From positions 3,120,001 to 3,152,000 of the forward strand of contig NZ_CP036280.1 in NCBI RefSeq assembly GCF_007748075.1: a DNA stretch of 32,000 bases. Direction: 5' to 3'. This DNA comes from Mucisphaera calidilacus (lineage in GTDB: Bacteria > Planctomycetota > Phycisphaerae > Phycisphaerales > Phycisphaeraceae). A program made the position numbers and the translations under genes. Below the pieces are notes generated by a model. That model was not told the DNA's origin and did no database searches. It was given only the letters and a program-made list of their open reading frames with translations. How positions within the stretch are numbered: the first letter of the stretch is position 1; every line of letters starts with the position of its first letter. This document shows positions 1-20,997 of this stretch, one piece after another.

Positions 1-1965
<1,965 letters not shown>

Positions 1966-2124
1966 ACCCCTAACAGAATACCGTTTATAGCCGAATATTA
2001 TTCTGGCGGAGAACTCGTTCGGGCCTATACTTCTGATGCCTTCTGCGCTATTGAGTCGATGTTGAACTTGCAAGGACAGCAGCGTGCGCACAGGATGTGC
2101 CGACTTCAGGAGAGGTAGGCAGGC

Positions 2125-2589
2125 ATGATGGTGCGTGGAACACAACAGTCCGGAGTCAAGGTTGCTCACCTTAGAGAGGGAGAAACGGAGTTTCTCACGC
2201 TGCATCGTGAGAACGAGGACCGGATACCGATCGAGGTTACGCCCCAACTCATTGAGCATCTGAGCCAGTTGTCATCGGTCTTCAAGATCACCACGGAGAT
2301 CGAGTCTGTCCTTTCTGAGGCTGTCGATCGCCTTGCCCGTGATTTTTCTGATCGAATCGAACTCATTTCCAAGCATCCCCGAATCAACGATGGCGAAATC
2401 GTCATTGCGGTGAAGCCACGCGGCGGGGTCTTCGACACCAGATTGTCCCTCGACCTGAACCACCTGTCGTGGGACTTCGAGGAGATGCTCACGGACACTC
2501 TTGGACCCGATCATGGAATCATGATAGGATTCAGACAGGAGTTTCCGGATGAATACGATTCAGAAGCATCTGCAGCGGTGGGAGCATAA
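2125..2589 (+). CDS. hypothetical acidic protein, upstream partner of the HEPN-like gene
   Basis: 154-aa ORF in a ~50% GC islet, with AGGAG at 2108-2112 upstream. Its 3' end overlaps the next gene by 41 nt. I recognise no family motif. Confidence 0.5.
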   Translation: MMVRGTQQSGVKVAHLREGETEFLTLHRENEDRIPIEVTPQLIEHLSQLSSVFKITTEIESVLSEAVDRLARDFSDRIELISKHPRINDGEIVIAVKPRGGVFDTRLSLDLNHLSWDFEEMLTDTLGPDHGIMIGFRQEFPDEYDSEASAAVGA

Positions 2590-2986
2590 CCGTAGTTTCA
2601 TCGGACGTGTCGATCCTGCCTATCCGGAATGGGCTGTCACGGTTGCTTTTTATGCGATGCTCCACCTTGTACAAGCGTACCTGATGCGCGAAGGGTACTG
2701 CCCCGATAAACATAAAATCCGCAGTGACGCGCTAAAGCGCATAGCTAAAGACAAACGCGGGAAAGATCGTGATCGCATTCGTACGCTGATTGATTATTAC
2801 AAGACACTTCGTGAGGCCTCAAACCACGCTCGTTACGATCCCGAACTGACGCGTTTTGGATCCGCGGAAGCCGTCAATGATGAGATCATGTCGGGGCTTG
2901 TGGTGAAGATCGAGGACATGGTCAGAAATCTGATGGGCGGCAATTCGGCTGTACCAAAGTTGGGTCAGATCGAACTCCGACAGTAA
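2549..2986 (+). CDS. HEPN-like helical protein (Rx4H motif)
   Basis: 145-aa all-helical-looking ORF with AGGAG at 2537-2541, 7 nt before the ATG. It contains LREASNHARYD, i.e. R88-x4-H93 followed by RY, matching the HEPN Rx4-6H signature near the C-terminal helix. Confidence 0.6.
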   Translation: MNTIQKHLQRWEHNRSFIGRVDPAYPEWAVTVAFYAMLHLVQAYLMREGYCPDKHKIRSDALKRIAKDKRGKDRDRIRTLIDYYKTLREASNHARYDPELTRFGSAEAVNDEIMSGLVVKIEDMVRNLMGGNSAVPKLGQIELRQ

Positions 2987-3009
2987 GCACAGGTACGATC
3001 CGTGGCCCC

Positions 3010-4806
3010 TCAGATCTCATAAGCCCAGACCTTCGCCCGCCCGGCCTCAACATCACCCCGGCCCGCGGTCAGCAGGCTGGCCCGCCGGATCGCACGCTTG
3101 GCGCTCGCGAAGATGCCGTCGCCGGCCTCGAAGATATTGTCCTGCCCGATGCGCTGGGCCAGACCATAGCTCTGGAACAGCTTCATCATCTCCGGCCGTA
3201 CGCCACAGAGCACGACGTGCCCGCCTCGCTCCCGGACGCGCTCCACGTAGCGCTCGAAGACGGCGAGAACCGTCGAGTCCATGCTGCGCGTGCGCTTGAG
3301 CCGAAACACGATCGCGCCGGGCTGGTTCTTCTCGATGCCGGTGAGTCGGTCGTGCAACTCGTCGGCGTGCCCGAAGAACAAGTCGCCTTCGACCTGGAGA
3401 AAAATGACGTGCTGGTCCGTGGTGTGCTCGCGCAGAGGACGCTCGATGAAGTGCCCCGTCGCCGCGTCCGGAGTGACCATCTCGTTGATGTGCAGCTGGC
3501 TGGTTCGCCGTACATACAAAGCGAGATTGAGGAAGACGCCGATGAGCACGGCATACGAGAGCGGGAGCAGGAGCGTAAAAAGAAGCGTGCCAAGACAGAC
3601 CGCCGCGTCGGCACGACTGCTGCGGCAGAGCTTGAGGATGGTTCGCCAGTCAATCAGGCCGTAAACGATCACAAAGAGGATGGCGGCAAGACAGGACAGG
3701 GGGATGTAACGCGCGTAATCCGCACCGATGAGAAGGATGATGAGAACAAACAGCGCATTAAAAAGACTGGAGATGGCCGTCTTGGCCCCGGCGTACTGGT
3801 TGAGGGCGGAACGCGAAAAACTGCCCGAGCCCGGAATGCACTGGAGGAAGCCGGTGACAAGGTTGGTCAGCCCCTGACCAAAAAGCTCCTGATTCGCACG
3901 AACCTGGTCGCCTGACTTCTCGGCGAGTGACTTGCCGATCGAATAAGCCTCCATAAGGCCCAGCAGAGACAACGCGAGCGCCCCGCCCAGAAGCACCTGC
4001 GTGTGCTGAAGCCCCTCCCAGGGGATGACGAACCGGAACTGGTCAAGTCCCGCAGGAATCGGCGCAACGAGCCGGACCTGCTCGTGGGTGTACCCAAGCA
4101 ACGCGACGGCAGAGGCGGTCGCAACAATCGCGAGCAGCGGACCGGGCACAAAACGAGAGATCATGCGCGCGCCAAGGACGATGCCGAGCGCAAGAAGCCC
4201 GAGCACAACGGACCCGGTGCTGACATCCGTGATGTTGGGCAGCAGCCGCTGGAAGACGCCCACGATCCCGGGCCAGTCAGCACTGGACCGCGCCGAGGCC
4301 GCCACGCCCAGAAAGTTCCCGATCTGCCCCGCAGCGATCAGGATCGCAGCCCCCGCAGTGAATCCCACGACGACAGCGGAACTGACGTAACGAGCAAGAG
4401 CACCCAGACTCAGCGTCGCCATGAGCAGCTGACAGCACCCCTTGAGAATCGTGAGCGCGAAGACGAGCTGAAGATAGAGGGCCGGGATCTGCTCAGCGGG
4501 AACGTCCCCCAACTGACGCATGGCGAGGGTCACGGTCGAAGCGACGAGGAGAGACTGCGTGTTGATGGGCCCGACCGAGAGATGCTTCTGGGAAGCAAAC
4601 AAACCACCCAGCGCCGCCTGGAAAATGACCGTGTACAGACCGTACTGCAGCGGCACGCCGGCGATCGCCGCGTACGCCATCGACTGCGGCACCGCGACCA
4701 CAGCAACCGTAAGCCCGGCGAGAGCATCGGCGCGGAGCGTGCCCGGATTCGTGTCGCGGAAGGCCTGCGTCGCGGGCGCGAGGAGTTTGAGGAGTTGGCT
4801 GGTCAC
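3010..4806 (-). CDS. SulP-family anion (sulfate/bicarbonate) transporter with C-terminal STAS domain
   Basis: 598 aa. The N-terminus LRADALAGLTVAVVAVPQSMAYAAIAGVP is the SulP signature region, followed by many TM helices. A C-terminal STAS-like segment is present (VIFLQVEGDLFFGHADEL...RLKRTRSMDSTVLAVFE). GTG start at 4806. Confidence 0.9.
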   Translation of the reverse strand: MTSQLLKLLAPATQAFRDTNPGTLRADALAGLTVAVVAVPQSMAYAAIAGVPLQYGLYTVIFQAALGGLFASQKHLSVGPINTQSLLVASTVTLAMRQLGDVPAEQIPALYLQLVFALTILKGCCQLLMATLSLGALARYVSSAVVVGFTAGAAILIAAGQIGNFLGVAASARSSADWPGIVGVFQRLLPNITDVSTGSVVLGLLALGIVLGARMISRFVPGPLLAIVATASAVALLGYTHEQVRLVAPIPAGLDQFRFVIPWEGLQHTQVLLGGALALSLLGLMEAYSIGKSLAEKSGDQVRANQELFGQGLTNLVTGFLQCIPGSGSFSRSALNQYAGAKTAISSLFNALFVLIILLIGADYARYIPLSCLAAILFVIVYGLIDWRTILKLCRSSRADAAVCLGTLLFTLLLPLSYAVLIGVFLNLALYVRRTSQLHINEMVTPDAATGHFIERPLREHTTDQHVIFLQVEGDLFFGHADELHDRLTGIEKNQPGAIVFRLKRTRSMDSTVLAVFERYVERVRERGGHVVLCGVRPEMMKLFQSYGLAQRIGQDNIFEAGDGIFASAKRAIRRASLLTAGRGDVEAGRAKVWAYEI

Positions 4807-4890
4807 GTTGACCCGATGTTAACGAGTCGCGGGCACCTGTTCAGAGGGCAAGGTGTTGTGGTCAACCAAGCCCGCGACAGGCTCAGTCCC

Positions 4891-4976
4891 CCCAACGAGC
4901 CCGGGACGGGCGTCCCGGGTCGTGCACGTCTCAACCTCCCCACCCCGCCCTGCCCGCGATGATGCAAACCCGTGCC
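4891..4976. repeat. ~86-bp intergenic repeat, copy A, with internal palindrome CCCGGGAC-GGGC-GTCCCGGG (4900-4919)
   Basis: It aligns by eye at ~90% identity to the reverse complement of 10723..10807. The flanks are near-identical (cccaacgag.ccgggacgggcgtcccgggtc.tgcacgtctcaacc ... tgcccgcgatgatgcaaacccgtgcc) around a variable C-rich centre. Confidence 0.8.
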
Positions 4977-5069
4977 CCCTCCTCTGCACCCCGAACCTAC
5001 CCCGGATCCCCCGCCGCCAAATAGTTGCTCCCACAGACCCACGAACACCATGCCTCTGAAGCACGAGAC

Positions 5070-6824
5070 CTAGCGCTGACGCATACGCGACGACAACCAC
5101 AATACACCCAGCACCGCGGCCACCGATGGCGCTGGCACCGACGCAGGTTGATCGAAATTCTGCGCGAGCAAACTCAGATCCAATAAGTCAACCACGCCGT
5201 CGCCGTTGAAATCACCCTGCTCCCACATCCCTGAGCCTCCAAATGATCCGGCAAGCTCGCTGAGATCAACCAGATCAACCTGAAAGTCAAGATTCGAGTC
5301 TCCGGCACGAACGCCTAAATATTCGGTAAGCCATACAAGACGATCTAGCACGTCAAGCATCTGGTCGCCGTTGAGATCGACAGCTGGTTCTCCCTCTGCA
5401 ATCAAGTAGTCAAGCAGTGGCAGATCATCACCATCAATCACACCACTAAAGTCAGCATCCCCAGGTATCTCAAATTCAAAACGCCACGATTCGCCCAGGA
5501 TACCCGCACTCATTGCCGAAGCGACGAGCCGCGCACCCTCTGCCGTGTAATGAACGCCATCGTTCGAGTAGACATCGAAGTATGGCGAATCAACCGACCA
5601 GTAAGCCTCTGCAAGCGTCCGACGCAGATTAACGGACATGACATTCGACATCGATCGCGCAATCTCATAGTGCACGCCCGCGTGCTGATCGTAGTAAGCC
5701 CTCTCCTCAGCAGATAACTCAATACGATCAGGGTCGGTGATGAGAATCACCGGATAATCCGAATCCCCCTGCCACGACCTCAAGCGATCGATCATCTGTT
5801 CCAGATTGACTCGATACTGATCAGTTTCAACACCGAATCCACCATCATTCGCACTCAACGTGATCACAGCCGCATCAAAACCCAAGGCCGCATACATAGC
5901 GCCCGCCTCATCATGCCTGGAGAGAAACGTCCCCGTTGCGTAACCGCCAACCGAAAGGTCCGACACGACAACACCTTCCGGGCGATGCATGTTCACATAA
6001 CGCATGCCGACAATGTCAGTCAGGCGATCATCATCCGTACCATACAACTCCACCGCCATGTAAGTCTTGTCGTCGAAATCGAGTGGCTCGGTCATGGCAG
6101 ACCGTACCGCGTATGTTTCCGTCGCAAGTCCCATCTCGAGTTCGCCCGATGTGGTCACCGGCGCGAAGTAACTCATAGACCCATCCACCGGCCGAGCCGC
6201 ATACGCCAAACCGCCCGAGTCCGGGTGTGTCCCCGCGAACACCTCCGCACGAATCTCTCCCGAGACGTCAAACATCATGACATCATCAGGAAGCTTGACG
6301 CCAGAAGAGACAAACTCGCCACTCGGTAATAAGCCAGTCAACTGGCCATAGGCTTGACCGTTGATGTTGCTGAAATAACGCTTGGTTGAATGGGCACGCA
6401 CATTCATACCCGGCAAGACCTGATGAGACGAAAGCCGACCCTGCGACGGAGTCGGTGACGCAGCCCCATTGCGCAACAGCATCTCAGCAGCAACGCTCCC
6501 ACCACCGCCATAACTCGAATAAGAAGCCACCTGAGTCTCGGGAATGTTCCCATACCGCTGGTAGAACTCATACCCGAGTCTCGGAATCACCACCGCACCC
6601 GCGCCGCCAGGCGAGGTCTCCTGCGAATCACCAATCACAGATAAACGAACCGTATCCATGTAGGCCGAGGCAAACAACGCATCAAAGACCTCTGGATTCT
6701 GCGTGAAGCGGTAAGGCACCTCGGCATAAGTCGGGTACGCAGCGGCATGACGACCCAATACACACGAGAAGACCAAACAACCCGACATGATCAGGAGTCT
6801 CGAGTCAATCATGATCTTTCTCAC
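5070..6824 (-). CDS. secreted SGNH/GDSL-type hydrolase with large insertion, dockerin-like repeats and PEP-CTERM-like anchor
   Basis: Signal-peptide-like N-terminus. SGNH blocks are VIGDSQ (Ser67), SVGGY, SANDGG and NDGVHYT. C-terminal Ca-binding dockerin-like repeats are present (DLNGDQMLDVLD, GDFNGDGVVDLLDL), followed by VPAPSVAAVLGVLWLSSRMRQR (PEP-CTERM-like). GC is ~45-52%, lower than the flanks. The start could be GTG 6824 or ATG 6812. Confidence 0.8.
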   Translation of the reverse strand: MRKIMIDSRLLIMSGCLVFSCVLGRHAAAYPTYAEVPYRFTQNPEVFDALFASAYMDTVRLSVIGDSQETSPGGAGAVVIPRLGYEFYQRYGNIPETQVASYSSYGGGGSVAAEMLLRNGAASPTPSQGRLSSHQVLPGMNVRAHSTKRYFSNINGQAYGQLTGLLPSGEFVSSGVKLPDDVMMFDVSGEIRAEVFAGTHPDSGGLAYAARPVDGSMSYFAPVTTSGELEMGLATETYAVRSAMTEPLDFDDKTYMAVELYGTDDDRLTDIVGMRYVNMHRPEGVVVSDLSVGGYATGTFLSRHDEAGAMYAALGFDAAVITLSANDGGFGVETDQYRVNLEQMIDRLRSWQGDSDYPVILITDPDRIELSAEERAYYDQHAGVHYEIARSMSNVMSVNLRRTLAEAYWSVDSPYFDVYSNDGVHYTAEGARLVASAMSAGILGESWRFEFEIPGDADFSGVIDGDDLPLLDYLIAEGEPAVDLNGDQMLDVLDRLVWLTEYLGVRAGDSNLDFQVDLVDLSELAGSFGGSGMWEQGDFNGDGVVDLLDLSLLAQNFDQPASVPAPSVAAVLGVLWLSSRMRQR

Positions 6825-7048
6825 CCGAATGATGTAACGATGGCTGCCTTATTGACGCTGCTGTAAGAGTATCAGCTTGCACTCGACCCGCCAGTCGAAT
6901 GACGGAAACCTCACAGACTTCTGCTTAGCCATCAATGCCATGACCCCGACCGTTGTTTCAAGCCTTCTAACCGCCGCCGTAACTTACCCAATTTGCCAGC
7001 TGACAGAAGTCAACCCCCTACCCCACCTCCTGACCTCAGTCTGCCCCC

Positions 7049-7651
7049 TCACAACGCCCCCAGCAGACGCTCCTCCAGACCCACGTCACGACCGGCAGGC
7101 GACCAGAACACCCGACTCGACCGAGGATCACCCGTCATCGTGATGCCGCCTGTCGGCACACCATTGCGAACCCCCGTGTCGTAATAAACCTTCCGACCGA
7201 AGTTCCCGCCCAGCCGACGATCCGTGTGACGCAGCCGCTCGTGCTCCACCGTCATAATCACCGACACCCCCCCTTCCACCACCTCCACCCGCGCCGTCGC
7301 GATCCGACGCATCGCCGTCATCGTCGCCACCGCCGACTCCGACCCGCTCGCCGAAGGACCCGCCCAGAACTCACCCGCCACGGGCACCGGCGCCGGCAGC
7401 GTCCGCAACGAGCCAAACCGCTGATTCACACGCTCGATCACAAAACCCTCGTCCTCCAGCAACAGCTCCACACGACGCAGAACCTCCAGACGCGAACCGT
7501 CCGAAACCACCCGCGACGTCAACGGCCGATCCTCACCCGCCGGCACCACCTGCGCATCCGCCGCCACCTCGTTCGCCTCAGGCGTCGACGTGCAACCCCA
7601 CACACAACAAGCCGCGAACACCATCAGACCCGCCAGCGCGCATCGCATCAT
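7049..7651 (-). CDS. probable lipoprotein, unknown function
   Basis: Internal start MMRCALAGLMVFAACCVWGCTST (signal peptide plus Cys lipobox), with GGAGG (rc of 7655-7659) just upstream. The 55 codons upstream in ORF 7049..7816 lack coding character. Confidence 0.6.
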   Translation of the reverse strand: MMRCALAGLMVFAACCVWGCTSTPEANEVAADAQVVPAGEDRPLTSRVVSDGSRLEVLRRVELLLEDEGFVIERVNQRFGSLRTLPAPVPVAGEFWAGPSASGSESAVATMTAMRRIATARVEVVEGGVSVIMTVEHERLRHTDRRLGGNFGRKVYYDTGVRNGVPTGGITMTGDPRSSRVFWSPAGRDVGLEERLLGAL

Positions 7652-7997
7652 CAACCTCCGGAATCCACAATGAACGCACAAAAATCCATGCCGACAGACT
7701 ACACGATCCGAAAAAAACGCGTCCATGCGCTCCTTCCGAATCCGTCGTATAAGATCAACGAAGGTGCCATCCACACAGGCAGCGTTCGGCGAATCGATCC
7801 AGCAAGCTCCCAGCAAGCCCGATCACTGATGCTGCCGATCACCCACAACTCCGGGTCGTCCCTAACCCGAAACGCGGGCCCAATCTGTCCTGCGCGCTGG
7901 CCGCGAATCCTTTCTGCCTTCGTTGACGTCCCACGGCCCTCCCGGGCCGTTCATTCCAACTTGTCGACCGCCGACCTCCTGCCGACGGCCCCGAAAC

Positions 7998-8486
7998 TCA
8001 GTCCGTGATCCCCAGCGGACCACTCGCGCGAATCACCTGGTCCGGCTCCACAAACACCCGACCAATATCCAGGCCAGCCTGACGCTGACCCCAACGCTCG
8101 AGCGGCATCAACTTCATGTGCGCTCCGTTTCCCACGACGGCCACGTCGCGTCCCAACGCAACCAGCTCCACGAGTCGGTCCGGCAATCGGATCCTTCCCT
8201 GCCGATCCGATTCCACGCGGAAGCTGTGCGAGAAGAAGGCTTCCTTATAGACGACGAGCTGGTCGACCGGCATCCCGGACGAATCAATCTGCCGGGCGTA
8301 CTCGTCGAACGACCGCTCCGGGAAAACGCGAAGCGTCCCCGGCTCGTGCGACGGGTTGACATAGAACGCGAGCGGGTCGCCTTCCGCCGCTCCCATCTCC
8401 CGCTGAATCGCGGTGCGGAAACTGGAAGGAATGGCGATCCGGTTCTTCGTGTCAACCGAGTGCTCATAGTTGCCAGTCAGAAACAA
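7998..8486 (-). CDS. mraZ: transcriptional regulator MraZ
   Basis: MFLTGNYEHSVDTKNRIAIPSSFR plus a second DRQGRIRLPDRL repeat gives the duplicated SpoVT/AbrB-like MraZ architecture. TTG start at 8486 with GAGGA 6 nt upstream. Confidence 0.9.
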   Translation of the reverse strand: MFLTGNYEHSVDTKNRIAIPSSFRTAIQREMGAAEGDPLAFYVNPSHEPGTLRVFPERSFDEYARQIDSSGMPVDQLVVYKEAFFSHSFRVESDRQGRIRLPDRLVELVALGRDVAVVGNGAHMKLMPLERWGQRQAGLDIGRVFVEPDQVIRASGPLGITD

Positions 8487-8566
8487 GGTGTGTCCTCAGA
8501 ACCTCGTAAGGATTGGCCTTCCATGGCCATCAAAAGGCTCCGTCCGATATCCATGTCGGCACGGTA

Positions 8567-8630
8567 CCCCACTCTTCCCCACTTTGCAACACTCTTCCCC
8601 ACTTTTCACCACTTTGCCCCACCAAGCCCC
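8567..8630 (-). promoter_or_regulatory. array of six GTGGGG-like hexamers at exact 10-bp spacing (MraZ-box-like operator) upstream of mraZ
   Basis: The top strand reads cccc|actcttcccc|actttgcaac|actcttcccc|acttttcacc|actttgcccc|accaagcccc. On the mraZ strand this gives GTGGGG, GTGGTG, GTGGGG, GTGTTG, GTGGGG, GTGGGG, each 10 bp apart, ending ~80 nt before the mraZ start. Confidence 0.6.
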
Positions 8631-8745
8631 TCAAATGCGGATAAAGCCCCATGCAGCGGCACGGCCCCGTCTCTCCCCCGGCACGATCTCCACAACCCAT
8701 CCACCGCCGGCTTATCGGACCCGCCGGGTCGAAATATGTGCTGAT

Positions 8746-9639
8746 TCAGAAGCGGATGACAAACCTGCAGCCGCTTGGCTCAACCGTCTCGTGCTCCAGG
8801 CTCCCCCCCGCCCGGAGGATCAGCTCCCGGCACAGCGACAAACCTAAACCATGACCGGAAACAGACTTAACCCACGGATTAAACAGCGAGCCCACGATCG
8901 TCGGGTCGATCCCCGGCCCGTCATCCTCAACCACCACCCAGATTCCGGCGTCGTCGACGCCGGCGAGGATGCGGATGAGGGTGCCCTGGCCGCTGCGCTG
9001 CATCGCCTGATGAGCATTGTTCGCAAGGTTCGTCAGCACGCGTTCGAGCGCGCCGGCCTCGATGGGCAGATCGGGACACAACTCTAAGTCACATTCAATA
9101 CTGATGTTAGCATCGCTGCCGGTCAGGTCGAGGGATTCGATCACCGCGTCCGCGACGCGCTGGGCATCGCAAGTTGTTGGTGTGGGGTCACTTGTGGCGG
9201 ACCGCGCGAGGTCGAGGATGGTCTCGGTCAGTCGGCCGACGCGGTCGATGGTCGAGCCGGCGCGGTCGAGGGCGTTGAGGACCAGGTCGGCGTTGCCCGG
9301 GTCGCGCTTGGCGCGTGAGGCGTATATGCCTAGCGGCGTCAACAGATTATTGATCTCGTGAGCGAGGATGGAGGCCAATCCCAAGCCTTCGGGATTGATC
9401 CAGGGCGTGTCGCCCCCCTGCTCCTCATCCAGCGTAAGTTGTTTCATTTCCGTGAGTTGCTGCTCGACGTCCGCGAGATGACCCAGGGCCTGTCGGGCGA
9501 CGCTGGCGTCGGGCCGGTCGCCCAGGGCGGGGAACGCTGCGGTGTCGTTCGGCTCGGCGTTGGTCGGGGGGTCCGGATAACTCACACTCAGGTTATCGGG
9601 GCCTGGCGGCTTGACATGAGGGGTGGGGAACGGAACCAC
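8746..9639 (-). CDS. soluble sensor histidine kinase (HisKA + HATPase_c), start uncertain
   Basis: H-box ILAHEINNLLTPL, N-box NLANNAHQAM, G1 DDGPGID, G2 GHGLGLS. No TM segment. The longest ORF reaches TTG 9747, but 9671-9741 holds the parS sites and the parB promoter. Candidate starts are GTG 9639 or ATG 9447, and neither has a clear SD. Confidence 0.8.
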   Translation of the reverse strand: MVPFPTPHVKPPGPDNLSVSYPDPPTNAEPNDTAAFPALGDRPDASVARQALGHLADVEQQLTEMKQLTLDEEQGGDTPWINPEGLGLASILAHEINNLLTPLGIYASRAKRDPGNADLVLNALDRAGSTIDRVGRLTETILDLARSATSDPTPTTCDAQRVADAVIESLDLTGSDANISIECDLELCPDLPIEAGALERVLTNLANNAHQAMQRSGQGTLIRILAGVDDAGIWVVVEDDGPGIDPTIVGSLFNPWVKSVSGHGLGLSLCRELILRAGGSLEHETVEPSGCRFVIRF

Positions 9640-9670
9640 GCGATCAATCTGGCGCTGGCGTGCCGGCAGG

Positions 9671-9686
9671 TGTTCCACGTGGAACA
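9671..9686. other. parS-like site 1: TGTTCCACGTGGAACA (perfect 16-bp palindrome)
   Basis: Direct read. It matches the canonical parS consensus TGTTNCACGTGAAACA at 15 of 16 positions (the only mismatch is G for A at position 12), and its two half-sites are perfectly symmetric. It lies 12 nt upstream of the -35 of the putative parB promoter. Confidence 0.8.
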
Positions 9687-9697
9687 GGTTGTCTTTC

Positions 9698-9726
9698 TTG
9701 ACAGGGGGGTCGGCGTGCGGTTTGAT
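9698..9726 (+). promoter_or_regulatory. putative sigma70-type parB promoter TTGACA-17 nt-TTTGAT
   Basis: TTGACA at 9698-9703, a 17-nt spacer, TTTGAT at 9721-9726, then AAGGAGG (9746-9752) 6 nt before the parB ATG. Confidence 0.5.
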
Positions 9727-9741
9727 GTTCCACGTGAAACA
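9726..9741. other. parS site 2: TGTTCCACGTGAAACA (full match to consensus TGTTNCACGTGAAACA)
   Basis: Direct read. It starts at the last base of the -10 element, 18 nt before the parB ATG. Confidence 0.85.
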
Positions 9742-9758
9742 GGTCAAGGAGGACCCCC

Positions 9759-10697
9759 ATGGTCACCAAGCGTCCATCTCGTCTGGGTAAGGGGCTGGCA
9801 AGCCTCGTGAGTCAGCCGGTGTCGGTGCAGCCCCCTGCTGCTTCTGAAAAGGCTGCGGCAGCGGCGGCATCGTCCGATGCGGAGGTGATTCATCGCCTGC
9901 TGCTGGAGGATCTGGAGCCGAACCCGTTCCAGCCGAGGCAGGACTTTGATCCGGCGCGGCTTCGGGAGTTGGCGGACTCGATCCGATCGCAGGGCGTGAT
10001 GCAGCCGGTGACGGTGCGGAAGAAGCCGGGCGAGGCGGGTCGGTACCAGATCATCGCAGGTGAGCGTCGCTGGCGCGCCGCGAAGCTGGCGGGGTTGGAG
10101 CGGATCCCTGCCCTGCTGCAGGCGTTGGAGGATCAGCAGGCGGCGGAGTGGGCGTTGATCGAGAACCTGCAGCGGGAGGATCTGAACCCGATTGAGCGCG
10201 CGAAGGCGTTGCAGGAGCTGATCCATAGGCATGGGCTGAGTCATGACCGGCTGGGGCAGCAGATCGGGTTGGAGCGGTCGACGGTGACGAATCTGCTGCG
10301 GCTGCTGTCGCTTGCTGAGCCGGTGCAGGATCATCTGCGGTCGGAGCGGCTGGCGATGGGTCATGCGCGGGCTTTGGCGGCGGTGTCGGACCTGGATTTG
10401 CAGGCGGAGCTGGCGGACCGGGCGGTGCGTGAGGGGTGGTCGGTTCGGCGGGTGGAGTCGGAGGTCAAGCGGGCGGGCAGGGCGCAGGACGAGGCGCCGT
10501 CGGTGAAGCGTGAGGCGCGGGGCGTGCACCTGGCTGCGTTTGAGCAGCATATTCTGCAGCACACGGGGTTGAAGGCGAGCATCAAGCCGACGGGCAAGAA
10601 GGGGGGCGGGAAGCTGACGCTGGCGTTTGATTCGCCTGAGGGGTTCATGGCGCTGCTGGGGCGGCTGGGGGTTCCAGAGCCTGAGGAAGGCGTTTAG
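9759..10697 (+). CDS. parB: chromosome partitioning protein ParB/Spo0J
   Basis: SRLGKGLASLV N-terminus, LEPNPFQPRQDFD, and the IIAGERRWRAAKLAG arginine patch/CTP-binding motif. HTH region plus a C-terminal dimerisation tail. Confidence 0.95.
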   Translation: MVTKRPSRLGKGLASLVSQPVSVQPPAASEKAAAAAASSDAEVIHRLLLEDLEPNPFQPRQDFDPARLRELADSIRSQGVMQPVTVRKKPGEAGRYQIIAGERRWRAAKLAGLERIPALLQALEDQQAAEWALIENLQREDLNPIERAKALQELIHRHGLSHDRLGQQIGLERSTVTNLLRLLSLAEPVQDHLRSERLAMGHARALAAVSDLDLQAELADRAVREGWSVRRVESEVKRAGRAQDEAPSVKREARGVHLAAFEQHILQHTGLKASIKPTGKKGGGKLTLAFDSPEGFMALLGRLGVPEPEEGV

Positions 10698-10722
10698 GTC
10701 CGATAACCTCTTGCGGATGCGA

Positions 10723-10807
10723 GGCACGGGTTTGCATCATCGCGGGCAGTGCGGGGCGGGGGGTTGAGACGTGCATGACCCGGGACGCCCGTCCCGGCCT
10801 CGTTGGG
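10723..10807. repeat. ~85-bp intergenic repeat, copy B (inverted relative to copy A)
   Basis: Its reverse complement aligns with 4891..4976. It contains the same CCGGGAC-N-GTCCCGG palindrome and lies between the convergent parB and cheB 3' ends. Confidence 0.8.
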
Positions 10808-10915
10808 AGGGGCTATTGGTTGAGAGGGGGCACGCCTAGCAGACGATTCTCTGACGAGAAGCTTGCTGAGATTCGGCACGCGTGCGTGGTTTGGAGGGAT
10901 GTGTGGATGGGGTTG

Positions 10916-12001
10916 TTATGCGGCGGCGCGGGTGGTTTGGGTTTCGATGAGTGCCTGGGCGAGTTGGACGGGGGGCATGGCGGCGAGGGCGGTTTGGTCT
11001 TCGACGACGGCTTTGGGCATGCCATAGACGACGCTGGTGGCCTCGTCCTGGGCGAGGATGGTTCCGCCTGCCTCTTTGAGCGTTTTGGCGCCGTTGGCTC
11101 CGTCGCGGCCGATGCCGGTGAGGACGATGCCCAGGGCGTTGGCCCCGAAGACCCTGGTGGCGGATTCGAGGAGGAGGTTGACGCTGGGTTTGTAGGCTTC
11201 GTCGGGTGCTTCGACGGTCTGGATGCGTGGGTTGTTGGGTCGTCCGGTGATGATGTGGTGTGAGCTGCCATGCATGATGGTGATGGTGCCGGGCCGGATG
11301 ACCTCGCCGTCTCCACCATGAACTACGTTCATTCTGCAGACGTTATCGAGTCGGTTGGCCATGGACTCGGTAAAGACTTTGGGCATGTGCTGGGCGACGA
11401 CGATGGGCAGGGGGAAGTTTTCGGGGAGTCGTTCGAGGATGTATTCGAGGACGGGGGGCCCGCCTGTGGAGGAGCCGATGCAGACGATGCTGACGTTTCG
11501 GACGGGTTCGATGGCGGATCTGACGGCGGCGGGGGGGTTCGTGGTGGTGGTGTCGTTCTGGGCGTCGGCGTTTCGTGGGGTTGTCTGCGTTGTGGTGAAG
11601 CGACCGCGTGAGGCGGCGATGGCCTTGATGCGTTCGAGCAGGTCGTCGCGCATGTCGCCCATTTTGGTGGAGAAGGTGGAGTGGTCTTTGGCGATGACGT
11701 CGACGGCGCCGATGCGTAGAGCGCGCAGGGATTCGACGGAGCCTTCGGTGGTGAGGGAGCTGCACATGAGGACGCGTGTGGGGCACTCGCGCATGATGAC
11801 GCGTAGGGCGGTGAGGCCGTCCATCTCGGGCATTTCGATGTCGAGTGTCATGACGTCGGGTTTGAGGGATTTGGCGAGTTCGACGGCCTGGAGTCCGTTC
11901 TTGCCGGTGGCCACGACCTCGATGCGCGGGTCTTCGTTGAGCATGGTGCTGATGGCACGTCTCATGAAGGCCGAATCGTCGACAACTACTGCTTTGATCA
12001 T
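10916..12001 (-). CDS. cheB: chemotaxis response regulator protein-glutamate methylesterase CheB
   Basis: MIKAVVVDDSAFMRR...DVMTLDIEMPEMDG receiver, then the esterase motifs GSSTGGP, VAQHMP and GIGRDGA. Start at ATG 12001 with GGAGAG upstream. The upstream 31 ORF codons are rejected. Confidence 0.95.
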   Translation of the reverse strand: MIKAVVVDDSAFMRRAISTMLNEDPRIEVVATGKNGLQAVELAKSLKPDVMTLDIEMPEMDGLTALRVIMRECPTRVLMCSSLTTEGSVESLRALRIGAVDVIAKDHSTFSTKMGDMRDDLLERIKAIAASRGRFTTTQTTPRNADAQNDTTTTNPPAAVRSAIEPVRNVSIVCIGSSTGGPPVLEYILERLPENFPLPIVVAQHMPKVFTESMANRLDNVCRMNVVHGGDGEVIRPGTITIMHGSSHHIITGRPNNPRIQTVEAPDEAYKPSVNLLLESATRVFGANALGIVLTGIGRDGANGAKTLKEAGGTILAQDEATSVVYGMPKAVVEDQTALAAMPPVQLAQALIETQTTRAAA

Positions 12002-12032
12002 GTCGCTCTCCGCGTTGGTGGTTCCCGGGTGA

Positions 12033-13493
12033 TTACGCGGCCTCTCGTGCGTTGGCGAGGCTGGCGAGTTTTTCGATGGGCGTCTGGATGCCATCGGTTT
12101 CGACGACGAGGTCGTTGCGTGGGTTGCGGCAGAAGTGGACGGGGCCGCGGAGTTCGTTCTTGAGTTTCATGGCGACGCCTCGGTAGGTGAAGACGACGGC
12201 GGGGAAGGCTCGCGCGGTGACGGTGAGGTCGACGACGCGGTCTTGTTCCATGCGTTCTTCGAGGGTTTCGAGGGCGCCTTGTGCTTTCTTGAGCCGGGTT
12301 TCGGTCATGGAGAAGTCGCACATGATCATGGTCATGCGTTCCTTCTGTTCGGCGTTGGGTTTTTTGAGGTACTTAAGGTTCTCGTTCTCGACGGTGAGTT
12401 CCTCGAGCTGCTGTTCGGAGATCCGGATGATCTGTCTGAGTTGTTCGGCGAGGGGTTCGAGTTTGGGGAGTGCGCCGAGGACGATGTTGGTGGCCATGCC
12501 GCCCGGGGATCCGAGTTCGTTGACGGTGCCTGAGCCGACGAGTTGTATGGTTCCGCCGACGAGCGAGGCTCGTGGTGCTTCGAGGTTGCCGTGGATGACG
12601 AGGTCGGATCCGAGGAGTTCCTTGTCGATGATGAGGTTGTGGTGGACCTGTCCGGAGACGTCGTTGAGGTATCGGGCGTGGAGGTCGTTGCCGACGTCGA
12701 CGGTTCCGTCCTCGCCGCCTGCGAATCCGCCTTTGGCGTGGAGGTCGCCGGTGCAGATGATGGTGGCGGACTCGATGAGTCCGCGGATCTCGATGTTGCC
12801 GTCGGCCTTGACGCGGAAGAGGTCTCGGACGCCTTTGGTGATGAGGACGTCGCCACAGAAGTCGATATGTCCGGTGGAGAAGTCGACGTAGCCGTTGACT
12901 TCGAGTTGTGATTCGATAACGGCGCGGCTGTGTTCGCGCAGGAGGACGCCTCGGCAGGTGGCGATGAGGTCACCTGCGGGTTTGATCTCGATGGAGTCGT
13001 TGGTGTCGAGTTTGGCGGCGGTGCCCATGTGAGCCTTGACGACTTCGCCGCAGATTTCTCTGCCGTCTTCGCCTGCGGTGGGCTCGTGGATCTTGCCGAT
13101 CTTCTGTCCGCGTTTGACCATGATGAAGGCGGAGCGGTCGTAGTGCGAGAGGCTGTGCGGCGCGTCGTCGGTGTTCTCGGTCTGGTCGTTGTCGGTTTTC
13201 TCGTCGGGTTCTTTGACGAGCCACTGGACGTAGCCGTCCTGGCCGTGTTCGGCGGGCGTTCCTTCGGCGATGGTGGCGGTGAGGTTTTCGCCTGGCTTTC
13301 GTTCGCGGATGGCGCGGTCGATCGCTGAGCGCACCTCGTCGGTGAGGTGGATGTTTTTCTCGGAGGCGGCCTGTTCGACGTAGACCGTGGTGAGGTGTTC
13401 GGCGTCGAAGCCTGCGGGCACCTTGAGTTCGGCGGTCATTCGGTCGGGGGCGAGTTTGACCGAGATATCGCGATCTTTGGGTGTGTCGGGCAC
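12033..13493 (-). CDS. DUF342/FapA-family protein embedded in the che operon
   Basis: The N-terminal ISVKLAPDRMTAELKVP segment and the long beta-helix-like repeats (GNIEIRGLIESATIICTGDLHAKGG...VIHGNLEA..LVGGTIQLVG), followed by a C-terminal coiled coil, are typical of DUF342. GTG start at 13493 with GGAG 5 nt upstream. The longer ORF to 13880 overlaps cheY and is S/P/R-rich. Confidence 0.8.
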   Translation of the reverse strand: MPDTPKDRDISVKLAPDRMTAELKVPAGFDAEHLTTVYVEQAASEKNIHLTDEVRSAIDRAIRERKPGENLTATIAEGTPAEHGQDGYVQWLVKEPDEKTDNDQTENTDDAPHSLSHYDRSAFIMVKRGQKIGKIHEPTAGEDGREICGEVVKAHMGTAAKLDTNDSIEIKPAGDLIATCRGVLLREHSRAVIESQLEVNGYVDFSTGHIDFCGDVLITKGVRDLFRVKADGNIEIRGLIESATIICTGDLHAKGGFAGGEDGTVDVGNDLHARYLNDVSGQVHHNLIIDKELLGSDLVIHGNLEAPRASLVGGTIQLVGSGTVNELGSPGGMATNIVLGALPKLEPLAEQLRQIIRISEQQLEELTVENENLKYLKKPNAEQKERMTMIMCDFSMTETRLKKAQGALETLEERMEQDRVVDLTVTARAFPAVVFTYRGVAMKLKNELRGPVHFCRNPRNDLVVETDGIQTPIEKLASLANAREAA

Positions 13494-13524
13494 ACGATCG
13501 CTCCGTTGTGGGAGCGGGTCTGGC

Positions 13525-13896
13525 TCAGGCGGCCTGTACCCGCTCGAGTGTTTCCTTGATGCGTCCGCCGAGGACGTCGGGCGTGAAGGGCTTGACGACG
13601 TAGTTGTTGACGCCGGCCTTGATGGCCTCGACGACGCGAGACTTTTCGGCCTCGGTGGTGACCATGATGATGGGTGTTTTGTGCCCTTGTTCGCGGTACT
13701 TCTTGACGAAGGTGAGTCCGTCCATGTTGGGCATATTCCAGTCGACGAGCAGGAGCTCGGGCTGGAAGGCACCGACCTTGGAGAGTGCGTCGAGACCGTC
13801 GGCGGCCTCTTCGATCTCGCTGTATCCGAGTTGGGCGAGGATGCCCTTCTGGATGTTGCGCATGGTCTTTGAATCGTCAACGAGCATGACTTTCAT
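13525..13896 (-). CDS. cheY: chemotaxis response regulator CheY
   Basis: MKVMLVDDSKTMRNI...LLLVDWNMPNMDG...IIMVTTEA...NYVVKPF carries all canonical receiver residues. Start at ATG 13896 with AGGAG upstream. Confidence 0.95.
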   Translation of the reverse strand: MKVMLVDDSKTMRNIQKGILAQLGYSEIEEAADGLDALSKVGAFQPELLLVDWNMPNMDGLTFVKKYREQGHKTPIIMVTTEAEKSRVVEAIKAGVNNYVVKPFTPDVLGGRIKETLERVQAA

Positions 13897-13931
13897 CGTG
13901 GTTTGCTCCTGTTCTTGAGTGGTTTGGTGGA

Positions 13932-14408
13932 TCAGGCGGCGGTGGCGTTGACCCACTCGACCATGGAGACCTCGACGGAGAACTCGCCGATGTCGCAGCT
14001 GCAGGGGATGGTGACGCCCTTCATGTCTTTTTTGCCGAAGACGGTGTGCCCGGTTCCGACGACGACGGAGGGTACGGAGATCTGGATGGACTTGCCTTCG
14101 AACTGTGCCTTGGCGCCGCCCGAGATCATGTTGACGAGTTCGCCGATGGCGTCGGCGAAGTCGGGGTTGGTGGCCTCGAGTGTTTCGCCGGTGAAGAGGC
14201 TGACGGCACGTTCGGCGGTGGAGGTTGGGAAGCTGACGACGACGAGACCTTCGATATCGCCGGAGAGCCCGATGATGCCGGAGACGTCGTGAGCGGGTTC
14301 GGGTTCTTTTTTGAGTTCCGGCTTGCCGACGGTCACGGGCAGCTGGAGCATCATCTCGAACACGTTGGATGTTGATTGCACGAAGGGTGTGATCGATGAG
14401 GAATCCAC
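13932..14408 (-). CDS. cheX: CheX-type CheY-P phosphatase (CheC/CheX/FliY family)
   Basis: A single DAIGELVNMISGG (D-x3-E-x2-N) active-site motif. ~158 aa. GTG start at 14408 with AAGGAG 6 nt upstream. Confidence 0.8.
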   Translation of the reverse strand: MDSSSITPFVQSTSNVFEMMLQLPVTVGKPELKKEPEPAHDVSGIIGLSGDIEGLVVVSFPTSTAERAVSLFTGETLEATNPDFADAIGELVNMISGGAKAQFEGKSIQISVPSVVVGTGHTVFGKKDMKGVTIPCSCDIGEFSVEVSMVEWVNATAA

Positions 14409-14427
14409 GCCTGTCTCCTTATAAATC

Positions 14428-16704: not shown

Positions 16705-16730
16705 GTCGTTCTCCGTTTTCCCGCTTGCGG

Positions 16731-17576: not shown

Positions 17577-17644
17577 CTCGTCTCCCTTGGTGTGGAAGGC
17601 GCGTGACGGCGTTTGTGCCGTCGCGCGTGGTTGTGTTGTGAGGA

Positions 17645-18199: not shown

Positions 18200-18342
18200 G
18201 GTTTTTTCTCCATCCGGAAGGGACCTGCGTGGCTCAACAAGGCTTACGCCTAGCTATCGTCGGAGCGTGGGGTGTCTTGCTTTAGGTGATGTGTGGTGGT
18301 TGCGGGACGATATGGGTGTGATTTCGCGTGGGTTACCCGGCG

Positions 18343-19428: not shown

Positions 19429-19546
19429 GCCAACGGCTCCTGCACGGCTCGTTCCTGAGGGGAGAGATCGGTCTCATCGCGGCGTGACTTAACCGTCAAA
19501 GTCGGCCTTGTTTCACAAGGTCCGGATCTGCTTTAGGGTGGTCTGT

Positions 19547-20572: not shown

Positions 20573-20591
20573 AATTTCGGGGTTCTTCTGA

Positions 20592-20619
20592 TTGACAAGA
20601 CTGAAGACTCCGATATCTT
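20592..20619 (+). promoter_or_regulatory. putative sigma70-type promoter TTGACA-16 nt-TATCTT
   Basis: A perfect -35 at 20592-20597 and TATCTT at 20614-20619, in a locally AT-richer intergenic patch 20 nt after the tsaC stop. Confidence 0.4.
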
Positions 20620-20625
20620 TAATGC

Positions 20626-20876: not shown

Positions 20877-20940
20877 GCGCGCAGGGGAGGAGGTCGCAGG
20901 GCTCGTGGTTCGGGGGCGCGGCGTGGGCATGCTGGTGTGT

Positions 20941-20964: not shown

Positions 20965-20997
20965 TATGAAATGTGATTGTGACGCTATGATGCCCGC

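What the first reader, a model, noticed from the sequence alone, without database searches (positions are those of the whole stretch)
8500..9800. Origin-polarity flip of strand composition (top strand C+A-rich to G+T-rich) at ~8.9 kb, beside parS/parB and inside a kinase gene
Hand counts on the top strand: 7261-7320 G10/C34; 8761-8940 G38/C74; 9121-9300 G78/C47; 15661-15720 G30/C13; 21241-21300 G28/C14. The bias follows position, not transcription. atpD (+ strand gene, left side) has a C-rich coding strand. The P-type ATPase (+ strand gene, right side) has a G-rich coding strand. The che operon (- strand genes, right side) has a C-rich coding strand. T versus A follows the same switch. Negative-to-positive G-C skew read 5' to 3' is the polarity expected at a replication origin, not a terminus, and the change point (~8930-8990) lies ~700 bp from the two parS sites. 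Two things are odd. The flip falls inside the histidine-kinase CDS, between the N-box and G1-box codons, rather than in a spacer. No dnaA or dnaN is present, and I see no convincing DnaA-box cluster. Possible explanations are a nearby non-dnaA-linked oriC, an old inversion or recombination breakpoint, or an assembly join.
Basis: partly seen in the sequence, partly recalled or inferred. Interest (0 to 1): 0.65.

Follow-up and report, generated by a model that had tools for sequence, protein, structure and literature searches.

The report
Sawtooth strand skew: many origin-like flips
The strand-composition flip is real and has replication-origin polarity, but it is one of about thirty equally sharp flips spaced roughly 100 kb apart in this planctomycete chromosome, a sawtooth that suggests replication from many start sites, which I know of in no natural bacterial chromosome.

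Summary
G-C, keto and T-A cumulative curves all reach their minimum at window 8940-8946, inside an intact histidine-kinase gene and 0.7 kb from the only two good parS sites in the genome.

The window is Mucisphaera calidilacus Pan265 (3.49 Mb, closed). This site is not the global skew minimum (that is at 617,845). It is one of about 34 sharp minus-to-plus jumps, median spacing 93 kb.

The reverse plus-to-minus changes are almost never sharp (29 up versus 2 down at a step of 0.3 or more). They are gradual and lie near the midpoints between jumps. The same sawtooth occurs in two congeneric assemblies and in a Poriferisphaera-like genome.

Jumps arise and disappear in sequence that stays collinear between species, and inverted blocks have regained the local skew. 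This excludes inversion breakpoints and assembly joins. The summed up-steps are about 15 times what one origin per cycle could produce.

Best reading (about 50%): many fixed bidirectional replication start sites with diffuse termination. These sites show no DnaA boxes, no shared motif and no AT-rich element, and many sit inside genes.

The parts
8938..9162 (.). Sharp minus-to-plus switch of GC, TA and keto skew (support interval). The point estimates are 8940-8962, which is genome 3,128,940-3,128,962.
   Evidence: The step across +-4 kb is 0.49, among the larger of the 34 jumps.
8746..9747 (-). Histidine-kinase gene (HisKA plus HATPase_c) that spans the switch. It is intact. The maximal ORF is given; the real start is probably downstream of the parS sites.
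   Evidence: Pfam. Third-position G:C changes from about 7:18 to about 15:5 around codons 262-270. The G001 ortholog aligns to the last residue.
9671..9686 (.). parS 1 (TGTTCCACGTGGAACA)
   Evidence: One of only two good parS sites in the genome.
9726..9741 (.). parS 2 (TGTTCCACGTGAAACA)
9759..10697 (+). parB. Its GC3 skew is +0.66, so it is fully equilibrated to the plus domain.
   Evidence: Pfam. GC3 values.
7998..8486 (-). mraZ, the only copy in the genome. It lies on the minus-skew side.
8570..8640 (-). Array of GTGGGG repeats (MraZ-box-like) spaced 10 nt apart, upstream of mraZ and about 350 bp left of the switch.
   Evidence: family D5.
4977..8940 (.). Short minus-skew segment (about -0.1 to -0.39) between the near-zero plateau and the switch.
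1..4800 (.). Near-zero GC-skew plateau. It begins at a half-jump at genome 3,118,889, 1.1 kb left of the window. The DNA is native, not foreign: the ATPase gene is syntenic in G002 at 86.7% amino-acid identity.
8963..32000 (.). Start of a 98-kb plus-skew domain (+0.25 to +0.47). It declines gradually through zero at genome 3,227,020.
4888..4976 (.). Left arm of an inverted repeat of about 86-89 nt. The pair is unique in the genome and brackets GDSL lipase, an unnamed ORF, mraZ, the kinase, parS and parB.
10723..10810 (.). Right arm of the same inverted repeat.

Best explanation
The flip at window 8.94-8.96 kb is a real, step-like switch in a position-dependent mutational strand asymmetry. To its right the top strand has been the C-to-T-prone, G+T-enriched strand; to its left the bottom strand has. 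It is one of about 34 such switches in the Mucisphaera calidilacus chromosome.

Together they form a sawtooth: a sharp minus-to-plus step, a plateau, and a gradual reversal near the midpoint to the next step. I read each sharp step as a fixed site from which DNA synthesis sets off in both directions, that is, a replication initiation site. I read the gradual reversals as zones where converging forks meet. On this reading the chromosome behaves as a multi-origin replicon of about 30 units of roughly 100 kb, and the window holds the initiation site that lies next to the parS/ParB partition locus.

Shown here: the pattern, its asymmetry, its presence in independent genomes, its independence from gene orientation and from rearrangement, and its evolutionary turnover.

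Inferred: that the asymmetry reports fork direction with the usual polarity (leading strand rich in G and T), and therefore that many origins fire within one cycle. What specifies the sites is unknown. They are apparently not DnaA boxes.
For: (1) Sharp jumps are almost only upward: 29 versus 2 at a step of 0.3 or more over +-4 kb (p = 5e-7), and 11 versus 0 at 0.4 or more. This holds at 2, 4 and 8 kb and also in TA skew.
(2) Averaged profiles show the up changes complete within 500 bp, while the down changes spread over about 20 kb on each side. Change points are localised to 31-400 bp.
(3) Zero crossings lie near the midpoint between adjacent full jumps. For n = 24 the mean is 0.47 and the SD 0.16, and 75% fall within 0.35-0.65 against 30% expected under a uniform distribution.
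(4) The same sawtooth appears in other assemblies: G001 (10 up, 3 down; 7:0 at 0.4), G002 (7:1; 4:0) and the Poriferisphaera-like G008 (8:2).
(5) The skew follows position rather than history. Block B (MraZ-HK-ParB-che...) is inverted between G000 and G001 yet has plus skew in both. A 6-kb inversion shows no local flip in either species.
(6) Four of seven mappable G002 jumps lie in sequence that is locally collinear with G001, where G001 has no jump. MraZ-HK-ParB is collinear in three species, and only G000 flips there.
(7) The summed up-steps of the 34 jumps come to about 13.7 skew units, my hand sum of the skewR minus skewL values. One origin per cycle, or any mixture of single-origin cycles, can give at most 2 x the plateau skew of about 0.45, which is 0.9. 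So at least about 15 full reversals coexist.
(8) G>C and T>A switch together, as expected for the classical replication-linked deamination asymmetry.
Against: The 34 sites share no k-mer motif. DnaA boxes are not enriched (3 seen against 2.5 expected). There is no AT-rich dip in the averaged profile, and only a marginal excess of AT-richer 40-mers. About two thirds of the sites lie inside predicted coding sequence.

Neither DnaA paralog (394; 3,276,233) is at a jump. Genes show no co-orientation with the presumed forks. tRNAs (21:12) and marker genes show only a weak one.

The sites are poorly conserved between congeners, which is unusual for sequence-specified bacterial origins.

To my knowledge no natural multi-origin bacterial chromosome is known, and none turned up in the literature searches.

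In G008 the sawtooth runs only between about -0.45 and 0, which also fits other models.
Confidence: 0.5

Rival explanations
1. Some other strand-asymmetric process, not chromosome replication proper, spreads in both directions from labile sites. Candidates are recombination- or repair-associated DNA synthesis from recurrent break or R-loop hot spots, or another process that keeps one strand single-stranded over tens of kb. Normal replication would still run from a single origin that leaves little imprint.
For: The sites have no origin hallmarks and no motif, they lie in genes and they turn over quickly. The whole family lacks a canonical RNase HI and has only a weak RNase H-like hit, which could favour persistent R-loops. 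A weak two-arm pattern in gene orientation (minimum at 2.71 Mb, maximum at 0.88 Mb; p about 0.04) might reflect a separate global replication axis.
Against: I know of no process that gives third-position skews of 0.3-0.6 over 50-kb tracts with reversals at the midpoints. End resection at a break predicts the opposite polarity under a deamination model (inference). The weak RNase H hit is shared by weak-skew relatives.
Confidence: 0.2
2. The chromosome has a conventional two-arm layout, but lagging-strand synthesis starts only at sparse, structure-defined priming sites about 100 kb apart, so replication is like strand displacement. Exposure time of the single strand, and therefore skew, would rise linearly away from each priming site and drop sharply at the next. 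That gives sharp up-jumps on both arms.
For: This predicts sharp-up and gradual-down whatever the fork direction (inference). It fits the one-signed sawtooth (-0.45 to about 0) in 600 kb of G008. Structure-defined priming signals need no sequence consensus and could lie in genes.
Against: In G000, G001 and G002 the sawtooth is symmetric about zero (+0.3 to -0.3) with plateaus on both sides. Exposure of one strand alone cannot produce that. The near-zero net skew over the whole G000 chromosome shows no two-arm offset.
Confidence: 0.1
3. The polarity is reversed in this lineage. The sharp jumps would be fixed fork-arrest or termination sites, and the broad reversals would be wide initiation zones.
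For: An earlier agent argued that some jumps look and evolve like termini (note e1-2673443, unchecked). The lack of any origin hallmark is compatible with this.
Against: It needs a C-rich, A-rich leading strand, which I know of in no bacterium. About 34 barriers would also need a recognisable site, and none is found. There is no reason for initiation zones to sit at the midpoints between barriers. tRNA and marker genes lean weakly toward the standard polarity. A related bold reading of an earlier report was later marked as fallen.
Confidence: 0.08
4. One reading: this site is the chromosome's single or primary oriC, not linked to dnaA and placed next to parS/parB. The other jumps would be secondary features.
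For: The only two good parS sites and the only ParB lie 0.7-0.8 kb from the jump. In all three Mucisphaera genomes parB sits on the plus side of an up-jump, at 0.8, 7.8 and 29 kb.
Against: The global cumulative minimum is at 617,845, and this site ranks 7th of 34 local minima. Twenty-eight other jumps reach a step of 0.3 or more, several of them larger than this one. There are no DnaA boxes and no unwinding element. The flip is absent from the collinear HK-ParB locus of G001 and G002.
Confidence: 0.05
5. The flip is an old inversion or recombination breakpoint, for example recombination between paralogous kinase genes or between the 86-nt inverted repeats.
For: Inversions of 6-30 kb are common between the Mucisphaera genomes, and synteny breaks lie within 0-4.5 kb of several jumps. 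A unique 86-nt inverted-repeat pair brackets the flip.
Against: Inversions create equal numbers of sharp up and down boundaries, whereas 29:2 is observed. The kinase is intact and orthologous along its whole length. MraZ-HK-ParB is collinear in the relatives. Inverting the segment between the repeats would leave the flip inside the kinase gene (inference). Inverted blocks have regained the local skew. Jumps arise in collinear sequence.
Confidence: 0.03
6. The flip is an assembly mis-join.
For: None beyond the abruptness of the flip.
Against: The gene across the flip is intact and has full-length orthologs. The genome is a closed 3,486,541-bp chromosome of a cultured strain. The same sawtooth appears in the G001 and G002 assemblies, of which at least G001 is a metagenome-assembled genome. 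An assembler cannot produce codon-level mirror composition.
Confidence: 0.01

Closest known systems
GC-skew switch at a bacterial oriC (Lobry/Grigoriev cumulative-skew minimum; the basis of Ori-Finder and DoriC)
   Same: It is a minus-to-plus step in G-C together with T-A, it is independent of gene orientation, and it lies close to parS/parB.
   Different: It is not unique (about 34 per chromosome) and not the global minimum. It has no DnaA-box cluster, no AT-rich unwinding element and no dnaA or dnaN nearby. It lies inside a coding sequence and is not conserved in congeners.
Skew 'N-domains' of mammalian genomes and skew jumps at yeast origins (my own knowledge; PMC3459929 for yeast came up, seen only as its listed title and abstract start)
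   Same: The shape is a sawtooth: sharp upward jumps at initiation sites and gradual decline between them. The sites have no strict consensus and turn over in evolution.
   Different: This is a bacterium with a 3.5-Mb circular chromosome and DnaA. The amplitude is several times larger (plateaus of 0.3-0.45; third-position skew up to 0.66). The shape is plateau-sigmoid-plateau rather than strictly linear.
Multi-origin archaeal chromosomes (Sulfolobus, Haloferax; PMC3000693 and PMC4595724, listed, seen only as listed titles and abstract starts)
   Same: Several origins on one circular prokaryotic chromosome.
   Different: From my own knowledge, archaea have 2-4 origins with ORB repeats next to orc1/cdc6 genes and weak skew. 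Here there are about 30 sites with no motif, no adjacent initiator gene and extreme skew.
Constitutive stable DNA replication from oriK sites in E. coli lacking RNase HI (PMC4631800 and 10.1101/757963, listed, seen only as listed titles and abstract starts)
   Same: Initiation away from oriC that does not depend on DnaA boxes. The Phycisphaeraceae genomes searched lack a canonical RNase HI hit.
   Different: That is a mutant phenotype, and from my own knowledge it involves a few broad initiation zones. Here the pattern is natural, the sites are sharp to under 100 bp, and it has been stable long enough to saturate third codon positions.
Strand-specific codon usage in genomes with strong replication skew (Borrelia type; my own knowledge and earlier notes)
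   Same: Codon usage is set by which strand a gene lies on relative to the local skew domain.
   Different: In those genomes there are two domains per replicon; here there are about 60. The skew here is also stronger.

Membership tests
Bacterial DnaA-dependent chromosomal origin (oriC) | Strand-composition switch of origin polarity (minus to plus, G-C and T-A together) | tested here: met
Bacterial DnaA-dependent chromosomal origin (oriC) | Single site per replicon at the global cumulative-skew minimum | tested here: not met
   The global minimum is at 617,845. This site ranks 7th of 34 local minima.
Bacterial DnaA-dependent chromosomal origin (oriC) | Cluster of DnaA boxes | tested here: not met
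   Three boxes with at most 1 mismatch lie within +-500 bp of all 34 jumps together, against 2.5 expected. The only cluster in the genome is at 827,006-827,249. The consensus used is the E. coli-type box; the Planctomycete consensus is unknown.
Bacterial DnaA-dependent chromosomal origin (oriC) | AT-rich DNA-unwinding element | tested here: inconclusive
   The averaged GC profile is flat at 0.63. At this site there is one 40-mer of 38% GC at window 9070-9109, inside the kinase gene. The excess of AT-richer 40-mers across all sites is marginal (0.457 against 0.482, p about 0.013).
Bacterial DnaA-dependent chromosomal origin (oriC) | Linkage to dnaA or dnaN, or conserved position among relatives | tested here: not met
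   The DnaA paralogs are at 394 and 3,276,233. G001 and G002 have a collinear MraZ-HK-ParB locus without a flip.
Bacterial DnaA-dependent chromosomal origin (oriC) | Origin-proximal parS/ParB | tested here: met
   The parS sites lie 709-764 bp from the jump and are the only good parS sites in the genome.
Multi-origin replicon with skew domains (N-domain type) | Many sharp upward skew jumps and few or no sharp downward ones | tested here: met
   29:2 in G000, 10:3 in G001, 7:1 in G002 and 8:2 in G008.
Multi-origin replicon with skew domains (N-domain type) | Gradual reversal between jumps, centred near the midpoint | tested here: met
Multi-origin replicon with skew domains (N-domain type) | More total upward variation than a single origin can give | tested here: met
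   The up-steps sum to about 13.7 (my hand sum of the values), against a maximum of about 0.9 for one origin.
Multi-origin replicon with skew domains (N-domain type) | Measured initiation at the jumps (copy-number peaks, fork-direction reversal) | not testable with these tools
No published replication data were found.
Multi-origin replicon with skew domains (N-domain type) | Recognisable origin element or adjacent initiator gene (as at archaeal and yeast origins) | tested here: not met
   No shared k-mer. No recurrent DnaA-family gene at the jumps.
Inversion / rearrangement breakpoint | Synteny break exactly at the flip, with a paired sharp boundary of the opposite sign | tested here: not met
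   The kinase gene is intact and collinear in the relatives. Sharp down boundaries are nearly absent. Jumps occur in collinear sequence.
Assembly mis-join | Broken gene or a pattern private to one assembly | tested here: not met
   Read support itself could not be tested.

The most novel reading that the evidence does not exclude
Mucisphaera, and at least the Poriferisphaera-like lineage of Phycisphaeraceae, replicate their circular chromosome from about 30 sharply defined origins that fire in the same cycle. These origins do not depend on DnaA boxes and turn over quickly in evolution, as in yeasts. They are visible in the sequence only because this clade has an exceptionally strong leading/lagging mutational asymmetry. 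As far as I know this would be the first natural multi-origin bacterial chromosome. The family-wide lack of a canonical RNase HI is a lead that initiation might be primed from R-loops.
Probability: 0.45. Interest if true: 0.95.

Novelty: new variant of a known kind. Interest (0 to 1): 0.85.

Why it matters
One origin per replicon is treated as a defining difference between bacterial chromosomes and those of archaea and eukaryotes, and origin-finding tools assume it.

Here the sequence of a cultured, closed-genome bacterium, together with independent assemblies of its relatives, carries the compositional signature expected of about 30 concurrently used bidirectional start sites. If replication profiling confirms this, it gives a tractable bacterial model for three things: multi-origin replication, origin specification without a consensus sequence, and rapid origin turnover. 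It would also explain why skew-based origin prediction fails in this group.

If it is refuted, an unknown process that can impose third-position skews of 0.3-0.6 in 50-kb tracts would need explaining.

In practice, at least ten separate flips in this genome were each flagged as 'the origin' in this scan. They should be treated as one phenomenon.

Tried and rejected
- Motif search: exact k-mers (k = 7-10, both strands) within the support intervals +-300 bp of the 34 jumps. Nothing is shared by more than about 9 sites.
- DnaA-box enrichment: none.
- AT-rich dip: none in the averaged profile, and only a marginal excess of AT-richer 40-mers.
- Gene orientation relative to the skew domains: about 50/50.
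- Global gene-orientation curve: a weak two-arm pattern, p about 0.04, unrelated to the skew extremes.
- tRNA (21:12) and marker-gene orientation: too weak to fix the polarity. The 16S gene sits at a zero crossing and the 23S gene is unlinked.
- Foreign-island explanation for the near-zero plateaus: rejected for this window, because the ATPase region is syntenic in G002 at 86.7% identity, and for G001's 904.9-911.3 kb plateau, which holds native orthologs.
- The lexA jump appearing conserved to the nucleotide between G000 and G001: discounted. In G001 both neighbours are minus, and a G-rich conserved coding tail probably fixes the change point.
- Gene-content explanations for the clade-specific strong skew: UDG, MutS, MutL and two DnaA paralogs are present in all relatives. 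The canonical RNase HI hit is weak or absent across the whole family, including weak-skew members.
- Rfam scan of the window: no match.
- Literature: no paper describing this pattern was found.
Full report
IDENTITY AND OBSERVATION

The window is bases 3,120,001-3,152,000 of a single-contig genome of 3,486,541 bp and 63.9% GC. Size and GC match Mucisphaera calidilacus Pan265T, CP036280.1, as given in PMC8882080. The closest named relative by ParB is a Mucisphaera MAG.

Sliding skew goes from -0.2/-0.35 at 6.5-9 kb to +0.25/+0.33 from 9.5 kb to the end of the window, and AT skew switches with it. Cumulative G-C, keto and T-A curves reach their window minima at 8946, 8940 and 8942. A likelihood change-point gives 8962 with support 8938-9162.

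Pfam confirms the genes:
- mraZ at 7998-8486 (-)
- a HisKA/HATPase_c kinase at 8746-9747 (-)
- parB at 9759-10697 (+)
- cheB, a FapA-family gene, cheA, cheW and a GGDEF-domain gene on the minus strand at 10.9-19.4 kb
- a P-type ATPase at 20998-23019 (+)

Minus-strand che genes have C-rich coding strands (-0.22 to -0.32). Plus-strand genes in the same stretch have G-rich ones (+0.23 to +0.30). So the bias follows position.

Inside the kinase gene, third-position G:C changes from about 7:18 to about 15:5 around codons 262-270, between the N-box and the G1-box. The protein is intact and aligns to its last residue with the G001 ortholog. The two parS sites (9671-9686, 9726-9741) are real and are the only good parS sites in the genome.

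THE WHOLE CHROMOSOME

It does not. The cumulative G-C minimum is at 617,845 and the maximum at 1,984,558, and the total excursion is small.

The chromosome alternates between strongly plus and strongly minus domains of 40-100 kb. A two-state segmentation gives 131 segments, about 60 of them major. Genes are split about 50/50 between strands within each domain. Third-position GC skew on the coding strand is +0.25 to +0.29 for genes whose coding strand is the locally G-rich strand, and about -0.50 for the others.

THE KEY ASYMMETRY

A scan that treats both signs alike, comparing skew in the 4 kb to the right with the 4 kb to the left, gives these counts:

| Step threshold | Upward jumps | Downward jumps |
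|---|---|---|
| 0.30 | 29 | 2 |
| 0.35 | 20 | 1 |
| 0.40 | 11 | 0 |

The result holds at 2 and 8 kb and in TA skew.

Averaged profiles show upward changes complete within one 500-bp bin. Downward changes decline over about 20 kb on each side (individual domains).

Thirty-four upward jumps were localised with support widths of 31-400 bp, apart from two wider ones (628 and 1300 bp). Median spacing is 93 kb, and 22 of 34 lie inside predicted coding sequence.

Zero crossings between adjacent full jumps cluster near the midpoint: mean 0.47, SD 0.16, 18 of 24 within 0.35-0.65.

Several jumps are split into two half-steps 7-21 kb apart with about zero skew between them. The window's jump is the right half of such a pair. 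The left half is at genome 3,118,889, 1.1 kb left of the window.

Nine flips that earlier agents of this scan each took for 'the' origin or arm boundary all coincide with entries in my list. They are at 160.5, 268.7, 617.9, 838.1, 1176.5, 1553.1, 1820.1, 2421.7 and 2939.3 kb.

NOT AN ARTEFACT AND NOT REARRANGEMENT

I pulled contiguous stretches from relatives:
- G001, the same genus, a 3.25-Mb contig of a MAG: a regular sawtooth over 800 kb, 10 up against 3 down at 0.3 and 7:0 at 0.4.
- G002, a second congener: 7:1 and 4:0 over 400 kb.
- G008, 4.24 Mb and 49% GC, Poriferisphaera-like: a sawtooth between about -0.45 and 0.
- G005, whose contig length equals the chromosome size PMC8882080 lists for Phycisphaera mikurensis: |skew| below 0.1. 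Most other members of the family and order have ordinary weak skew.

Synteny at about 70% amino-acid identity shows three things:
- The 29-kb block MraZ-HK-ParB-che-ATPase is inverted in G000 relative to G001 and G002, yet has plus skew in both G000 and G001. A 6-kb inversion carries no local flip in either species. So skew re-equilibrates to position.
- Of seven G002 jumps whose flanks can be mapped, four lie in sequence locally collinear with G001, where G001 has uniform skew. One is conserved to within 250 bp, and two lie within 2-4 kb.
- MraZ-HK-ParB is collinear in all three genomes, and only G000 flips inside the kinase. The nearest up-jump is 7.8 kb from parB in G002 and 29 kb in G001.

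Inversions or mis-joins predict equal numbers of sharp boundaries of both signs, breakpoints at the flips, and relic rather than positional skew. None of these holds.

A QUANTITATIVE ARGUMENT (INFERENCE)

Suppose skew reports time-averaged fork polarity. Then any mixture of cycles with one origin each has a total upward variation of twice the plateau skew, about 0.9 here. The 34 up-steps sum to about 13.7, my hand sum of the values. A single origin that wandered over evolutionary time is therefore also excluded. At least about 15 full polarity reversals must coexist.

MECHANISM

G>C and T>A on the same strand is the classical signature of the strand that is the lagging-strand template, which has the leading-strand sequence. 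With that polarity, each sharp step is a point from which synthesis diverges, and each gradual reversal is a zone where forks converge.

Other features fit this reading. Plateau-sigmoid-plateau shapes with midpoint crossings fit roughly synchronous firing and similar fork speeds. Flat zero plateaus between paired half-steps fit two nearby sites of which one fires per cycle. G008's one-signed sawtooth fits weaker local sites inside a region replicated mostly in one direction.

I therefore read the window's flip as one of about 30 replication initiation sites, the one next to the partition locus. My confidence in that mechanism is about 0.5. My confidence that the flip is a genuine positional switch, one of many, and neither a unique oriC nor a breakpoint nor a mis-join, is above 0.9.

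WHAT ARGUES AGAINST THE MECHANISM

- No shared motif.
- No DnaA-box enrichment.
- No AT-rich element beyond a marginal trend.
- Most sites lie inside genes.
- Neither DnaA paralog is at a jump. The better-scoring one, at 3,276,233, lies in mid-plateau.
- No gene co-orientation.
- Poor conservation of sites between congeners.
- No replication data.
- To my knowledge no natural precedent in Bacteria, and nothing in the searchable literature.

Three rivals remain open: a non-replicative bidirectional process, sparse lagging-strand priming, and reversed polarity. Gene-content checks did not explain why only this subclade shows strong skew.

LOCAL DETAILS

- The two parS sites lie within the first 26 codons of the maximal kinase ORF. 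Similarity to the G001 ortholog begins near codon 50, so the real start is probably downstream of parS.
- A unique inverted-repeat pair of about 86 nt (4888-4976 and 10723-10810) brackets GDSL lipase, an unnamed ORF, mraZ, the kinase, parS and parB. Inverting that segment would not remove the flip from the kinase gene.
- GTGGGG repeat arrays with 10-nt phasing occur at four loci in the genome, and three of them lie within 1.3 kb of an up-jump, including this one. This was noticed after looking at the jump sequences and covers 3 of 34 sites, so I treat it as a lead only.
- Rfam finds nothing in the window.

Noticed in passing
window 4888-4976 and 10723-10810: An inverted repeat of about 86-89 nt, 90-95% complementary, that itself contains a GC-rich hairpin. 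The pair occurs only here in the genome and brackets GDSL lipase, an unnamed ORF, mraZ, the kinase, parS and parB. A 27-nt piece recurs at genome 771,440-771,466, 2.4 kb from another up-jump.
   Followed up: partly
window 8570-8640; genome 897,950-897,990, 1,700,070-1,700,120 and 2,453,700-2,453,740: GTGGGG repeat arrays (MraZ-box-like) with 10-nt phasing occur at four loci, although there is only one mraZ gene. Three of the four lie within 1.3 kb of an up-jump. The 14-mer GGTGAAAAGTGGGG occurs twice in the genome, 21 and 352 bp from jumps.
   Followed up: partly
genome about 3,108,6xx-3,108,8xx (about 11 kb left of the window); G001 1,029,565-1,029,637; G002 804,898-804,971: A non-coding element of about 75 nt with two hairpins is conserved in all three Mucisphaera genomes (about 90% identity between G001 and G002) in a spacer where neighbouring DNA is about 70% identical. 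In G001 and G002 it lies 0.5-0.8 kb from a conserved up-jump, but G000 has no jump there. It may be a small RNA. ARAGORN finds no tRNA or tmRNA in it; Rfam was run on the window only, not on this spacer.
   Followed up: partly
whole genomes G000-G018 (family f1) compared with G019-G030: A canonical RNase HI (Pfam PF00075, 135-167 bits) is present in every other family of the order. In the family that contains Mucisphaera there are only weak hits of 27-48 bits or none at all, with one exception in an incomplete MAG.
   Followed up: partly
genome 394-867 and 3,276,233-3,276,715: Two DnaA-family genes are present in every genome of the order that was searched. The record's coordinate 1 is set at the weaker-scoring paralog (171 bits); the better one (229 bits) is at 3.276 Mb. 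Neither is at a skew jump.
   Followed up: partly
genome 2,495,502 (16S, +) and 2,841,150 (23S, -): There is a single 16S gene, and the only 23S-motif match lies 345 kb away, so the rRNA genes are unlinked. The 16S gene sits exactly at a gradual plus-to-minus crossing.
   Followed up: no
It has almost no strand skew, and it is syntenic at 86.7% identity in G002, where it lies in a plus domain.
   Followed up: partly
window 7001-7750: This stretch has the strongest minus skew in the window (-0.35 to -0.39). It holds overlapping ORFs on both strands (7049-7816 minus, 7226-8008 plus), neither with a Pfam match, so the coding strand is unresolved.
   Followed up: no
G012 (same family), many contigs: About 18 copies of a short DnaA-like ATPase domain (about 38 bits, ORFs of about 185-433 aa). 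These are probably helper ATPases of an IS21-type insertion sequence in an element-rich genome.
   Followed up: no
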